Assembly: GCA_965603475.1 (NCBI GenBank) | Contig: CBFDDD010000013.1 | Location: forward strand, 2,687-66,686 | Length of the DNA: 64,000 nt | Reading direction: 5' to 3' | Origin: an uncultured Myxococcales bacterium | GTDB lineage: Bacteria; Myxococcota_A; UBA9160; UBA4427 | Shown here: piece after piece, positions 11,344-32,110 of the stretch | Numbering within the stretch: the first letter of the stretch is position 1 | Layout of the letters: every line of letters starts with the position of its first letter | Notes under the pieces: model-generated | The model's database searches: none | The model's input: only the letters and a program-made list of their open reading frames with translations | Told to the model about the DNA's origin: nothing | Made by a program: the position numbers and the translations under genes

Positions 11344-11736
11344 CTATCCGCTTCCAGCTTTTGATCCGTCATAGGATTTCAGGAGTTCATACCAACCAGA
11401 ACCGTTTATCTTGATAGGCAGTTGGCCGGCCCTTTTCATCGTTTCCATGTGATGCCGGCGACCTTCCCAGGCGTCCGGGTCGGCCTGCCATTCGTTGAGC
11501 GCCCGCTCGGCTTCTTCGTAGCTTTCCGCCTCGACCTCGTAGACCGACAGGTAGTTCGAAACAGTCTCCCCATCGAGATGCGGTCCGGAAAGCTTGTAGA
11601 CACTGCCTTTGATGAAATTGGGACACTTGGTTGTGTCTTCGATGTGCTGATCGATAAACCACTCATCGAAAATCGCCTGGTCGTCGGTGCTTGTCGGCTC
11701 ACAGAGCCCTATCAATACGTACCGTGCCATGACCAT
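11344..11736 (-). CDS. hypothetical small cytoplasmic protein
   Basis: 130-aa ORF (MVMARYVLIGLCEPTSTDDQAIFDEWFIDQH...). Its composition looks like coding sequence and the overlapping frames are Arg-rich shadows. I did not recognise a family. Confidence 0.5.
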   Translation of the reverse strand: MVMARYVLIGLCEPTSTDDQAIFDEWFIDQHIEDTTKCPNFIKGSVYKLSGPHLDGETVSNYLSVYEVEAESYEEAERALNEWQADPDAWEGRRHHMETMKRAGQLPIKINGSGWYELLKSYDGSKAGSG

Positions 11737-12028
11737 CCCTTCTCTTTCTCGTTTCGGGTTCTCGGTGCGGGACAGGCCTGTCGGACGTGACGAGGCAAGA
11801 CCGCAGGCTTGTGGCCACTCTCAGGGCGGAATTCTCCGTCCTCATCGAGCTTATTCAACGTCTCAGGGTAAGAGGAATGCGCAGGCGACGCCACGATCCA
11901 CCCACCCGTTCTGTCGGTTTGTTATGTGACGCCCGAACCCGGCCTCCCTGGCGTCCGGATGGGGCAATCCCCTGTTTGTCGATCGGCTCCACCTCGCGTA
12001 GACTCACCGTCAACACACGGGAGGAAGT

Positions 12029-12589
12029 ATGCCGAGAATCAGCGAGGCGGGAGGAGTCGAGGGATTTGCAGGGGTCTACCTCCACTGTCCGAATCTCTTC
12101 AAGGGCTTCATGTTCAACTACGGGCTGTTGTGGTCCCACAGCAAGCTCGACCCCATTCTCAAGGACTTGATCCGACTGAAGTCCTCGAATCTGAACGGCT
12201 GCCGGTATTGAATACCTGCTCGATCCGCTGCGGCGCAGCGGAATGGCATGAATGAAGACATGGTCGCGAAGATGCTGGACCACCGAAGCTCCGACCTCGA
12301 CGAACGCACGAAGGTAGCCCTCGATTTGACCGAGGATTTCGTGATGAACCACGCTCATGGAATCGATGACGCGTTCATGAAACGATTGCGCGAGCACTTC
12401 ACAGAGGAGCAGGTCGTCGAGCTGACGATCGCTGTTGGAATCTGGGACTCGATCCACAAGTTCAACAACGTCTTCGACGTCGATCCACCCGTCTCGGACG
12501 GCCAGTTCACGGTCGAGCCCCCGGACGTCCCGCCCGACATGCGACAACACGTCCTCGGGGCCAAGCCGGTGGAGGAGGTAGGGGAGTAG
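12029..12589 (+). CDS. AhpD-like / carboxymuconolactone decarboxylase (CMD) family protein with in-frame UGA, predicted selenoprotein (CxxU)
   Basis: Track ORFs 12029..12211 and 12248..12589 are in the same frame and are separated only by TGA 12209-12211. Read-through gives ...LIRLKSSNLNGCRY[U]IPARSAAAQRNGMNEDMVAKML..., so the TGA falls on the second Cys of the CMD CxxC. The family consensus continues straight across it. RBS GGGAGGAAG lies at 12018-12026. Confidence 0.75.
12224..12242 (+). promoter_or_regulatory. SECIS-like hairpin downstream of UGA 12209
   Basis: TCCGCTGC-GGC-GCAGCGGA forms a perfect 8-bp stem starting 12 nt after the UGA, with a G-rich apex. Confidence 0.55.
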
Positions 12590-12694
12590 CCTACTCGCCT
12601 GAACTCGTTCCCAGTTCTCGATCACAGGAAATCCGTCGCCACCGCACCGAGTACGCTCGGAAAGATCAGCGACACGATTCAGCGGCGTCTCGTC

Positions 12695-13823: not shown

Positions 13824-14285
13824 ATGTCGGGCGTCCCGCTCGGCGTCGCCGCCGATGCACTCGACACGGCCCGCAACATCCTCGAGGACAAGACCGATCG
13901 CGTGGTCGGCCTGCCCTACAGTCAGATGCCCCGGGTCCAGTCAGCCATTGCCGAGGCCCAGGCGATGCTCGGCTCGACCCGCAGCTACGTATTCACTTCG
14001 CTCGAGAATCAGTGGGCCAAGCTGGAGCGAGGAGAAGACCTCACCACCGAGGACCGGGCCAACGCCTGGCTCTCCGGCACGAACGCCTTCCAGACCGGAC
14101 GCAAGGTCGCGTCACTGCTCTACGACGTGATCGGCGGCAGTGCGATCTACAGCAAGAAGAGCCCCTTCGACCGGCACCTGCGCGACATGCAGACCGCGCG
14201 TCAGCATATGGTCGCACAGACGAAGGGCTGGGAAGGCGTGGGGTCCATGCTGCTCGATGGTGAGAGCGATCATCCGCTGATGTGA
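13824..14285 (+). pseudogene. C-terminal domain fragment of an acyl-CoA dehydrogenase type-2 / flavin monooxygenase family protein
   Basis: 153 aa (GVAADALDTARNILEDK...FDRHLRDMQTARQHM) matches only the C-terminal helical domain of proteins that are about 390 aa long. In frame upstream, a TGA at 13737 is reached after non-homologous sequence. Confidence 0.6.
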
Positions 14286-30586: not shown

Positions 30587-32110
30587 ATGAGAATTGCAAA
30601 CAAGCTTTCACGCATTGAACTCTCTGATTGGACGGGGCAGCAAGAACGCCTTGGAGCATTCTGGCGAGAGCGTCCGGTCGTACTCGTATTCATTCGCCAC
30701 TTTGGTTGACTTTTTTGCCGAGAGCAAGTCGCGCAGTTGCGCGACCGAATGAACGAAATACGCGCCCAAGGAGCAGAGATCGTCATCGTCGGGAACGGAG
30801 CCGAAAATTTTGCGGCGGCCTTCCGAGAGGATTTCGACCTCGATTGTCCGATTCTGGTGGATCCGGATCTCCGCGCGTATCGCGCGGCCGGTCTTCGAAG
30901 AGGCCGGGTTGAACTGCTCTCCCCGAGGCTTCCTCTGAATGCGCTGCGCGCTCTTCGTGCAGGTTCTCGCCAGACGGGCGTTCAGGGTGACCCCTGGCAG
31001 CTCGGCGGATTGTTCGTGATTAGGCCTGATGGCGAGCTGATGTATCGACATGTTAGCCGCGAGGCGGGAGATCATCCGCCTGTGGACGAAATTCTCGAGG
31101 CGCTCGAAGAAGGGGCAGAGCCAATCTCCGATATGTCTGGTTCTTCCGCGGGTCAAGTCTGGCTGGGACGCGCGCTCAGTCGAGTCGTTGATCCATTCAT
31201 CGTTTCCTCCTTCGACCGAACTGGATTCCGAATTCATAGCTTGACCTTTGGGGCCGACGACCTGGATGTCGATCTCTCGGGAAGACGGTGTCTCGTTACC
31301 GGCGCGAACTCAGGGATCGGGTACGAGACAGCGTTGGCGATGGCGGACCTCGGCGCTGAGGTCGTGCTTCTCTGTCGCAATGCCGAGCGAGGTACCGAGG
31401 CGGTAGAGCGTGTGCGCCAGCAAACAGGAAATTCGCGGGTATCGCTCGAGATCGTCGACATGTCGGACATGGAATCGATTCGAGCGGCGGCGGTTCGGCT
31501 GAATTCAGCACCGATCGATATATTGGTGCACAATGCGGGCGTTCTGCCGGATGAGCGCGTCGAGAGCCGTGATGGGTTGGAACTCACACTGGCCACGCAT
31601 GTGGTCGGGCCATTCCTGCTCACGCGCCTACTGCGCGAGAGCCTGGAAAAGTCCTCCGATGGTCGGGTGATCTGGGTTTCGTCGGGTGGAATGTACTCTC
31701 GCCGATTGAATCTGGAGGATCCGAACTGGAAGGGTCGCGATTACGATGGTGTTCTCGCCTACGCCGAGACCAAGCGCGCCCAGGTGATCCTTGCTGAGCT
31801 CTGGGCTGAAGAACTGCGGGGGGGGCCCGTCGTCGTGAACGCGATGCATCCCGGTTGGGCTGACACGCCCGCCGTACAGGACTCGCTGCCTCGGTTCCAT
31901 AAAGTGACTCGTCATATCCTGCGTACGCCGGCCGAGGGGGCAGATACCGTTGTTTGGCTTGCGGCGTCCGAACAGGGGCGACGATCGACCGGTCGATTCT
32001 TCTTCGATCGAAGGGAGCGGAGAACCCATCTGATTCCCATCACGAGGGAATCCCAGAAGGATCGTCGAGCACTCTGGGCGCTTTGTGAAAATCTAAGCTC
32101 AAAGAGTTAG
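30587..32110 (+). CDS. peroxiredoxin-like (AhpC/TSA_2, PRXL2/SelU-like) domain with UxxC, fused to an SDR domain; predicted selenoprotein
   Basis: The frame is open from ATG 30587 to the stop at 32108-10 except for TGA 30707-09: ...RPVVLVFIRHFG[U]LFCREQVAQLRD... This aligns with the in-window paralog LLVFLRHFGCIFCREIVGDLRK. SDR part: CLVTGANSGIG, HNAG, YAETK. The track ORF starts only at TTG 30737. Confidence 0.75.
30728..30745 (+). promoter_or_regulatory. SECIS-like hairpin downstream of UGA 30707
   Basis: GTCGCGCA-GT-TGCGCGAC has perfect arms. A realistic fold is a 7-bp stem with an AGUU loop. It starts 18 nt after the UGA and carries GU at the apex. Confidence 0.55.

What the first reader, a model, noticed from the sequence alone, without database searches (positions are those of the whole stretch)
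12029..12589. AhpD-like/CMD-family gene split by UGA at the CxxC position: second predicted selenoprotein
Track ORFs 12029..12211 and 12248..12589 share one frame and are separated only by TGA 12209-11. The read-through product ...LDPILKDLIRLKSSNLNGCRY[U]IPARSAAAQRNGMNEDMVAKMLDH...EEQVVELTIAVGIWDSIHKFNNVF follows the carboxymuconolactone-decarboxylase/AhpD consensus continuously across the stop (..L..S.LNGC.YC....A...G...). That puts U at the second redox Cys, giving CxxU. A perfect 8-bp hairpin TCCGCTGC-GGC-GCAGCGGA (12224-42) starts 12 nt after the UGA. AhpD-like selenoproteins are a known marine and deltaproteobacterial family, so this is a mis-annotation trap rather than a new family. It independently supports Sec decoding in this organism and so strengthens the call at 30707.
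Basis: partly seen in the sequence, partly recalled or inferred. Interest (0 to 1): 0.65.

Follow-up and report, generated by a model that had tools for sequence, protein, structure and literature searches.

The report
Selenocysteine AhpD/CMD-like redox protein gene
The two short ORFs are one 186-codon gene for an AhpD/CMD-family redox protein whose in-frame UGA is almost certainly read as selenocysteine; the family is already known, but gene callers routinely cut it in two.

Summary
ORFs 12029-12211 and 12248-12589 share a frame, are separated only by TGA 12209-11, and are followed by the 8-bp hairpin at 12224-42.

- The Pfam CMD domain runs across the stop.
- All 68 distinct homologous loci recovered from other genomes keep TGA at this codon. 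These come from Gammaproteobacteria, Chloroflexota and one deltaproteobacterial MAG.
- In those loci the N-terminal part stays conserved under purifying selection.
- Full-length Cys homologues have CxxC where this gene has CxxU.
- The hairpin meets all four criteria of the published bacterial SECIS model. It shows compensatory changes and frozen synonymous sites.
- Independent metagenome assemblies show the same TGA, and TGA is the usual stop in the window.
- A second gene in the window (30587-32110) shows the same pattern.

The family is known: "CMD domain-containing protein" (Sargasso Sea), "AhpD-like 2" (GOS).

The ~110-aa "stand-alone" homologues in protein databases are truncation artefacts, not a refutation.

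Not shown: Sec machinery in the source genome, actual Sec insertion, and the substrate.

Verdict: a new member of a known kind, of low-to-moderate interest. Its value lies mainly in annotation.

The parts
12020..12024 (+). Shine-Dalgarno GGAGG, 4 nt upstream of the start codon
   Evidence: An SD-like motif lies upstream of the homologous start in 65 of 69 loci, and the start is ATG in 68 of 69.
12029..12589 (+). Single CDS of 186 codons (Sec at codon 61, stop TAG 12587-89) for an AhpD/CMD-family selenoprotein
   Evidence: dN/dS against the nearest relative is 0.045 before the TGA and 0.066 after it.
12113..12334 (+). Pfam CMD domain (PF02627), aa 29-102, spanning the UGA
   Evidence: E 1.7e-10, 41.2 bits against a cut-off of 23. 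TIGR00778 ahpD_dom scores 30.1 against a cut-off of 27.8.
12164..12166 (+). Asp46 codon (Asp or Glu in homologues), equivalent to Glu36 of PA0269 and Glu118 of Mtb AhpD in the E-X11-C spacing
   Evidence: Relay residues are taken from PMC3141380. The equivalence is inferred from spacing and alignment.
12200..12202 (+). Cys58 codon (TGC), the first residue of CxxU and the presumed resolving cysteine
   Evidence: Cys in 68 of 68 homologues and invariant in distant full-length homologues.
12209..12211 (+). UGA, predicted selenocysteine codon 61
   Evidence: TGA in 68 of 68 distinct homologous loci. Cys in 8 of 10 full-length distant homologues. No read-level variation.
12221..12223 (+). Arg65 codon, at the +4 position where AhpD and PA0269 have the relay histidine
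   Evidence: Arg in 68 of 68 and also Arg in most Cys homologues. His55/His137 are taken from PMC3141380.
12224..12242 (+). Bacterial SECIS-like hairpin: 8-bp stem and GGC loop, with the loop starting 20 nt after the UGA
   Evidence: 96.8% of cells are paired in 51 sequences. 4 of 8 pairs show double-sided changes. Synonymous sites are frozen.

Best explanation
Window 12029-12589 is one gene. It encodes a ~186-residue all-helical AhpD/CMD-fold thiol-selenol oxidoreductase with the active-site motif D/E-X11-C58-R-Y-U61-X3-R65. During translation, the hairpin 12 nt downstream of UGA 12209-11 acts as a bacterial SECIS. It recruits SelB carrying Sec-tRNA(Sec), so the UGA is decoded as selenocysteine instead of terminating. 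Sec61 replaces the second cysteine of the CxxC pair. By analogy with AhpD, it is inferred to be the attacking nucleophile on an oxidised partner (a peroxiredoxin, a peroxide or a disulfide). Cys58 then resolves the intermediate as a selenenylsulfide, which an unidentified reductant recycles.

Shown here: one continuous conserved frame, the conserved UGA, Cys at that column in homologues, RNA-level selection on the hairpin, and the AhpD-like fold of the Cys relatives.

Inferred: actual Sec insertion, the SelB-SECIS interaction, the chemistry and the substrate.
For: - The CMD domain crosses the stop. PDB relatives Atu0492 and PA0269 align over residues 21-146 with NGC-x-Y-C on NGCRY-U.
- All 69 intact homologous loci have TGA at codon 61. 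They come from Gammaproteobacteria (including the isolate Litorirhabdus singularis), Chloroflexota (including complete Tepidiformaceae chromosomes) and a deltaproteobacterial MAG. The flanks are conserved on both sides.
- dN/dS is 0.045 and 0.066 on the two sides of the TGA.
- The full-length Cys homologue P0124 (46% identity) reads LNGCKMC. The column is Cys in 8 of 10 distant full-length homologues.
- In the hairpin, 96.8% of cells are paired, against 23-69% when the partners are slid. 4 of 8 pairs have compensatory changes, and 0 of 500 shuffles reach the observed score.
- Third-position entropy is 0-0.38 bit in hairpin codons 66-71, against 1.5-1.8 bit in codons 62-65.
- The hairpin meets the published bSECIS model from PMC13188914: loop 3 nt (allowed 3-9), stem 8 bp (4-16), G in the first two loop positions, spacing 20 nt (16-37), and MFE -13.2 kcal/mol (required <= -7.5).
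- TGA is the commonest ordinary stop in the window, 32 of 55 crude ORFs, so the code is not reassigned.
- No sequencing error is visible.
- A second gene with UxxC has a conserved TGA in 17 of 17 homologues and its own hairpin.
- The AF2 model of the Cys relative matches AhpD-like structures, TM 0.85 normalised by the target's length.
- The Sargasso CMD selenoprotein AACY01716242 has the same layout and 34% identity.
Against: - No selA, selB, selD or tRNA-Sec was found in the 64-kb window or in the flanks of the homologous loci.
- No Rfam family matches the hairpin.
- The hairpin overlaps conserved coding sequence (SAAAQ). Part of its conservation is therefore protein-level, and the shuffle control ignores relatedness.
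- The relay His of AhpD is Arg here, so the chemistry may differ from AhpD.
- No partner gene is conserved nearby, so the substrate is unknown.
- There are no proteomic or 75Se data.
Confidence: 0.88

Rival explanations
1. These are two real, separately translated small proteins of 60 aa and 113 aa, as the databases annotate them. The UGA is a true stop.
For: All 120 listed database homologues are 103-145 aa. Other assemblies-aa and 113-aa ORFs. An ATG at codon 74 is present in 65 of 68 homologues.
Against: The split would cut the CMD domain inside its active-site motif. The 12 codons between the TGA and that ATG are as conserved as the rest, with Pro63 and Arg65 invariant. Codon 74 is Leu (TTA) in three genomes. 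Full-length Cys forms exist as single chains. RNA-level selection on a hairpin placed as a SECIS would have no explanation.
Confidence: 0.03
2. The gene is a pseudogene, or the TGA is a sequencing or assembly error.
For: An in-frame stop in a single sequence is most often one of these. One homologue (L066) is frameshifted.
Against: TGA occurs at the same codon in 68 of 68 distinct sequences spanning three phyla at 65-93% identity. dN/dS is about 0.05 on both sides. Independent metagenomes agree.
Confidence: 0.01
3. The UGA is read through, but not as Sec. Possible routes are near-cognate Trp or Cys insertion, or a stop-codon reassignment, with the hairpin acting as a generic read-through stimulator.
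For: Sec machinery was not observed. Downstream hairpins can stimulate read-through in general (established knowledge).
Against: TGA is the main ordinary stop codon here. The position is the catalytic Cys of a CxxC pair, the classic Cys/Sec exchange site (PMC1088965). The hairpin fits the bSECIS model in all four criteria. The carrier taxa include lineages reported as selenoprotein-rich (Dehalococcoidia in BSepDB; Deltaproteobacteria).
Confidence: 0.06

Closest known systems
"CMD domain-containing protein" selenoprotein family of the Sargasso Sea (Zhang, Fomenko & Gladyshev 2005, PMC1088965). The same family is "AhpD-like 2" (pfam02627, CxxU) in GOS (PMC2398784) and "CMD-like protein, PF02627, CxxU" in the 2026 review (PMC13188914).
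   Same: It shares the Pfam PF02627 domain and the CxxU motif with Sec at the second position. AACY01716242 reads ADCNY-U-GNVRSASAKQQGLTEE against NGCRY-U-IPARSAAAQRNGMNED here, with Arg at +4 and Ser at +5 in both. It has a 7-bp stem with a GGC loop starting 13 nt after the TGA. Identity is 34%, E 2e-13. It is marine.
   Different: Identity is only 24-34% to the four Sargasso members. The motifs IPARS and HKFNNVF are absent from that supplement, so this is a separate subclade. In this subclade every recovered genome copy is the Sec form.
"AhpD-like" / "AhpD-like 1" selenoprotein family (COG2128, TIGR01926; CxxU)
   Same: It has the same superfamily fold, the same CxxU motif and the same marine abundance. 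JGI names the fragments "alkylhydroperoxidase family enzyme".
   Different: Identity to AACY01589336 is 18%, E 2e-5. TIGR01926 scores 34.7 bits against a cut-off of 81.8. That family has His at +4 (CEY-U-IRAH), whereas this gene has Arg.
PA0269 / Atu0492-type AhpD-like proteins (PDB 2o4d, 2ijc, 7xw1, 2gmy) and M. tuberculosis AhpD
   Same: They share the all-helical AhpD fold: TM 0.85 (normalised by the target's length) for the Cys relative and sequence E 1e-10. The relay layout E-X11-C-x-Y-C corresponds to D/E46, C58, Y60 and U61.
   Different: Sec replaces the second Cys. Arg65 replaces the relay His55/His137. There is a ~35-residue C-terminal extension (PPDVPxDMR). No adjacent ahpC was found.
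NF053654 "YciW-related (seleno)protein" (NCBIfam)
   Same: It is the best NCBIfam hit and is also a CMD-superfamily (seleno)protein.
   Different: The score is 52.7 bits against a cut-off of 310, so this gene is not a member.

Membership tests
Bacterial selenoprotein gene (Sec-decoded UGA) | In-frame UGA conserved among orthologues, with coding conservation on both sides | tested here: met
   TGA in 68 of 68 distinct sequences. dN/dS is 0.045 and 0.066 on the two sides.
Bacterial selenoprotein gene (Sec-decoded UGA) | Cys-containing homologues aligned at the UGA position | tested here: met
   P0124 reads LNGCKMC. Cys occupies the column in 8 of 10 full-length homologues.
Bacterial selenoprotein gene (Sec-decoded UGA) | bSECIS stem-loop as defined in PMC13188914: 3-9 nt loop, 4-16 bp stem, G in the first two loop positions, 16-37 nt from the UGA to the loop, MFE <= -7.5 kcal/mol | tested here: met
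   The loop is GGC (3 nt), the stem is 8 bp, the spacing is 20 nt and the MFE is -13.2 kcal/mol. Covariation and frozen synonymous sites support it.
Bacterial selenoprotein gene (Sec-decoded UGA) | Genome encodes selA, selB, selC (tRNA-Sec) and selD | not testable with these tools
   None was found in the 64-kb window or in the flanks of the homologous loci. The rest of the source genome cannot be fetched. Indirect support comes from a second conserved-TGA gene in the window.
Bacterial selenoprotein gene (Sec-decoded UGA) | Selenium actually incorporated at the UGA | not testable with these tools
   This needs 75Se labelling or mass spectrometry.
CMD / AhpD superfamily (Pfam PF02627) | Domain match above the gathering threshold | tested here: met
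   41.2 bits against 23. TIGR00778 scores 30.1 against 27.8.
CMD / AhpD superfamily (Pfam PF02627) | All-helical AhpD-like fold | tested here: met
   The test was done on the Cys relative P0124 (46% identity), because the read-through sequence could not be submitted. pLDDT is 73, and TM (normalised by the target's length) is 0.85 to 2gmy and 2ijc.
AhpD proper (AhpC-reducing alkylhydroperoxidase D) | Proton relay Glu, Cys, His/Tyr, Cys, His (E-X11-CxxC-X3-H) | tested here: not met
   Asp/Glu46, Cys58, Tyr60 and Sec61 are present, but position +4 is an invariant Arg65, not His.
AhpD proper (AhpC-reducing alkylhydroperoxidase D) | Genomic or functional coupling to AhpC | tested here: not met
   No conserved peroxiredoxin neighbour was found. 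Only scattered, non-orthologous SDR genes lie nearby.
TIGR01926 peroxidase-related enzyme (the model the 2026 review lists for its 'AhpD-like protein' entry; the GOS paper defines 'AhpD-like 1' by COG2128) | Score above the model's cut-off | tested here: not met
   34.7 bits against 81.8. Identity to a Sargasso AhpD-like member is 18%.
Sargasso "CMD domain-containing" / GOS "AhpD-like 2" selenoproteins | PF02627 domain with CxxU, and significant similarity to published members | tested here: met
   E 2e-13 at 34% identity to AACY01716242 and E 6e-12 to AACY01567769. The UGA-to-hairpin layout is the same.

The most novel reading that the evidence does not exclude
This subclade (…NGC-x-Y-U-IPARS/T-A/S-AAQ…) may be an obligate-Sec cassette that moves horizontally as one unit, gene plus embedded SECIS (UGA-N12-8 bp-GGC). 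It is found in marine Gammaproteobacteria, Chloroflexota (Tepidiformaceae/Dehalococcoidia) and a Myxococcota-like deltaproteobacterial lineage. That would imply that very divergent SelB proteins accept the same minimal hairpin. Gene callers split it everywhere, so no full-length form appeared among the 122 protein-database hits. Arg in place of the relay His may mark a catalytic variant of the AhpD mechanism.
Probability: 0.4. Interest if true: 0.4.

Novelty: new member of a known kind. Interest (0 to 1): 0.25.

Why it matters
The value is practical. Here and in at least 69 species-level genomes, pipelines annotate this gene as two fragments of about 60 aa and 110 aa, or as one 110-aa "hypothetical / CMD family" protein. 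Selenoproteomes and antioxidant gene inventories of abundant marine groups (Halieaceae and other Pseudomonadales, SAR202-like Dehalococcoidia, sediment deltaproteobacteria) are therefore under-counted.

The alignment gives a clean, covariation-supported example of a very small bSECIS that constrains the encoded peptide (S-A-A-A-Q). It could serve as a test case for SECIS models, since Rfam has no match.

Together with the UxxC peroxiredoxin-SDR gene at 30587-32110, it indicates that the source organism uses selenocysteine.

It does not open a new biological question.

Tried and rejected
I therefore searched with the post-UGA part and folded the Cys relative P0124 instead.
- Rfam gave nothing relevant at the gathering threshold or at the permissive threshold. 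The only hit was a chance Zeta-pan match at E 4.8.
- ARAGORN on the window and 60 loci found no tRNA-Sec.
- tblastn with E. coli SelA, SelB and SelD against the window and the 74 flanking loci of the AhpD/CMD gene held at that point found nothing.
- A search for conserved neighbours found no synteny across phyla. SDR genes recur, but at different positions and at 27-38% identity.
- A whole-window scan for further in-frame TGA candidates by GC3 and folding energy was too noisy in this 60% GC sequence. It did not even recover the 30707 case, so I abandoned it.
- The Shine-Dalgarno argument against independent initiation at codon 74 is weak. The coding sequence CAGGAAGGC mimics an SD in 40 of 69 loci.
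- The listing of cluster members does not accept U, so I could not check whether any public record annotates the full-length Sec form.
- The raw-read run X20 had no reads on the region at the sampled depth.

Full report
**1. Observation**

The sequence is as described. From ATG 12029 to TAG 12587-89 there is one frame of 186 codons, interrupted only by TGA at 12209-11. The context is ...LKSSNLNGCRY-[TGA]-IPARSAAAQRNGMNEDM.... A GGAGG Shine-Dalgarno at 12020-24 precedes the start.

The perfect hairpin TCCGCTGC-GGC-GCAGCGGA occupies 12224-42, starting 12 nt after the TGA. Alone it folds at -13.2 kcal/mol (z = -2.8). In a longer 71-nt context the z-score is only -0.9, so single-sequence folding is not the evidence that matters.

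A 256-aa ORF on the opposite strand (11855-12625) covers the gene. It is the usual open antisense frame of a 60% GC genome.

**2. One gene, not two**

Pfam CMD (PF02627) matches residues 29-102, straight across codon 61 (E 1.7e-10). NCBIfam TIGR00778 (AhpD core domain) passes its cut-off. The (seleno)protein model NF053654 and TIGR01926 hit but stay far below theirs. Solved structures Atu0492 (2gmy) and PA0269 (2o4d, 2ijc, 7xw1) align over residues 21-146, with their NGC-A-Y-C on NGC-R-Y-[U].

**3. The database trap**

A search of 5.8 billion protein clusters returned 122 hits at E <= 1e-5. The 120 listed were all 103-145 aa and covered only the part after the TGA. Other assemblies of this very sequence carry separate 60-aa and 113-aa gene calls. 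It is not one.

Scanning genome DNA gave 74 loci, and in 70 of them tblastn ran from residue 1 through the stop. Translating them shows TGA at codon 61 in every intact locus: 69 loci, 68 distinct sequences. The N-terminal 60 codons are conserved and the start is ATG in 68 of 69. One copy (L066) is frameshifted.

Carriers are:
- marine Gammaproteobacteria (Pseudomonadales, Halieaceae, Azotimanducaceae, including the cultured Litorirhabdus singularis IMCC14734);
- Chloroflexota (many closed Tepidiformaceae chromosomes, Dehalococcoidia);
- one "Deltaproteobacteria bacterium UBA4427" MAG, which is the nearest relative at 93% amino-acid and 83% nucleotide identity, with partial synteny.

Against that relative, dN/dS is 0.045 upstream and 0.066 downstream of the TGA. 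The ATG that gene callers use (codon 74) is TTA in three genomes.

**4. Cys at the same column**

An exhaustive profile-free search with the post-UGA part found a full-length 184-aa homologue. P0124 has 46% identity, and its N-terminus matches the upstream ORF. It reads LNGCKMC where the window reads LNGCRY-TGA.

In an alignment with ten full-length distant homologues, the first Cys is invariant and the UGA column is Cys in eight. The Cys clade closest to this gene is small, with five clusters. Every genome copy recovered for the window's subclade is the Sec form.

**5. The hairpin is under RNA-level selection and fits the bSECIS model**

I aligned 51 distinct sequences and counted the pairs of the 8-bp stem:
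- 96.8% of cells are paired, against 23-69% when the 3' partners are slid by 1-3 columns.
- Four of eight pairs show changes on both sides: U-A to C-G, G-C to U-A, U-A to C-G, C-G to A-U.
- No shuffle of 500 reaches the observed covariation.

Relatedness inflates such shuffle tests, so I also looked at synonymous sites. Third-position entropy is 0-0.38 bit in codons 66-71, which form the stem and loop. It is 1.5-1.8 bit in the immediately preceding Ile-Pro-Ala-Arg codons. Ala68 and Ala69 are GCG in 68 and 67 of 68 sequences, whereas Ala64 uses all four codons. The amino acids themselves co-vary with the stem (SAAAQR, SAAAQQ, SSAAQK, SAAARQ, SAEAQR).

The published consensus model asks for four things (PMC13188914). 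The hairpin meets each:

| Criterion | Required | Observed |
|---|---|---|
| Apical loop | 3-9 nt | 3 nt (GGC) |
| Upper stem | 4-16 bp | 8 bp |
| G in the first two loop positions | yes | GG |
| UGA-to-loop spacing | 16-37 nt | 20 nt |
| MFE | <= -7.5 kcal/mol | -13.2 kcal/mol (-9.0 to -13.2 in the four homologues tested) |

Rfam has no matching family.

**6. Alternatives excluded**

- TGA is the commonest ordinary stop in the window, 32 of 55 crude ORFs, so there is no genome-wide reassignment.
- Contigs from three independent marine-sediment metagenome runs cover 12209-11 without difference. One variant strain carries six other substitutions in the same piece. This excludes a sequencing error.
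- Conservation across three phyla excludes a pseudogene.

**7. Sec use in this organism**

No selA, selB, selD or tRNA-Sec lies in the window or in the flanks of the homologous loci.

There is indirect support. The gene at 30587-32110 is an AhpC/TSA-SDR fusion whose thioredoxin-fold domain crosses a TGA at 30707-09 (RHFG-U-LFC, UxxC). All 17 full-length homologues, from Myxococcota and "Deltaproteobacteria" MAGs, keep the TGA. All 17 also show a near-invariant downstream core (TCGCGC-AGTT-GCGCGA, within GTCGCGC-AGTT-GCGCGAC in the window), with the loop starting 25 nt after the UGA.

The literature lists Deltaproteobacteria as the phylum with most selenoproteins in 2006. Dehalococcoidia MAGs are among the largest selenoproteomes in BSepDB.

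**8. How it most likely works**

Shown: the fold and motif.

Inferred: SelB carrying Sec-tRNA(Sec) binds the hairpin as the ribosome reaches the UGA and inserts Sec61.

The AlphaFold model of the Cys relative (pLDDT 73) matches Atu0492, PA0269 and AhpD structures at TM 0.85 normalised by the target's length. The CxxC sits where one helix ends and the next begins.

The AhpD proton relay is Glu118/Cys130/His132/Cys133/His137 in M. tuberculosis and Glu36/Cys48/Tyr50/Cys51/His55 in PA0269 (PMC3141380). It maps to Asp/Glu46, Cys58, Tyr60, Sec61 and Arg65. Four of five positions are kept. The fifth is an invariant Arg, in the Sec forms and in most Cys relatives alike.

From my own knowledge of the AhpD literature (Koshkin et al. 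2003, not re-read here), the second Cys is the nucleophile. Sec at that position, resolved by Cys58 as a selenenylsulfide, is the expected arrangement.

The partner is unknown. No peroxiredoxin or other gene is conserved next to it. CMD-fold enzymes also include decarboxylases and the debrominase Bmp8.

**9. Comparison with known families**

Four AhpD/CMD-related selenoprotein families are catalogued. The supplement of the Sargasso Sea paper gives sequences:
- The "AhpD-like" (COG2128) example is 18% identical.
- The "CMD domain-containing" examples are 24% and 34% identical (E 6e-12 and 2e-13).
- AACY01716242 (ADCNY-U-GNVRSASAKQQGLTEE) shares Arg at +4 and Ser at +5. It also has a 7-bp stem with a GGC loop starting 13 nt after the TGA.

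The gene therefore belongs to the family called "CMD domain-containing protein" (2005), "AhpD-like 2" (GOS 2008, 70 Sec and 207 Cys sequences) or "CMD-like protein" (2026 review). It forms a distinct subclade not present in that supplement.

**10. Verdict**

This is a new member, and a well-populated all-Sec subclade, of a known selenoprotein family. Interest is modest. The main value is correcting a systematic annotation error, plus a clean small-SECIS covariation data set.

Noticed in passing
window 30587-32110 (+); TGA 30707-09; hairpin 30728-45: This is a second predicted selenoprotein: an AhpC/TSA (peroxiredoxin-like, UxxC) domain fused to a short-chain dehydrogenase. The TGA is conserved in 17 of 17 full-length homologues from Myxococcota and 'Deltaproteobacteria' MAGs. 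A 7-bp hairpin with an AGUU loop follows, whose core is near-invariant across the 17.
   Followed up: partly
window 13824-14285 (+): This ORF encodes only the C-terminal domain of an acyl-CoA dehydrogenase (153 aa), and there is no room for the N-terminal domains. It sits at a synteny break relative to the nearest relative L001, so it is probably a gene remnant left by a rearrangement.
   Followed up: partly
window 11344-11736 (-): This 130-aa divergent upstream neighbour has no Pfam match. It is the only neighbour syntenic with the closest relative L001.
   Followed up: no
L010 (MAG labelled Candidatus Fonsibacter ubiquis) and L036 (MAG labelled Flavobacterium sp.): These copies are 70-73% identical to the window and look like the gammaproteobacterial ones. 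The contigs are probably mis-binned rather than genuine occurrences in those taxa.
   Followed up: no
L066:3001-3533 (Tepidiformaceae contig CBDFIA010000002.1): This is the only homologous copy whose frame is broken before codon 61. It is either a decayed copy or an indel error of a long-read assembly.
   Followed up: no
window 11855-12625 (-): A 256-aa ORF antisense to the whole gene is longer than either sense fragment. It could be mis-called as the gene in this 60% GC sequence.
   Followed up: no
loci L001-L070: The gene and its embedded hairpin are 65-76% identical between Gammaproteobacteria, Chloroflexota and the deltaproteobacterial lineage, with no conserved neighbours. This suggests horizontal spread of the Sec form as a unit.
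   Followed up: partly
one search hit list (P0125-P0168 and others): Many more distant homologues (30-50% identity) are also ~90-117 aa and align from their first residue to the position just after the UGA. The same truncation artefact probably affects further Sec-containing subclades.
   Followed up: no
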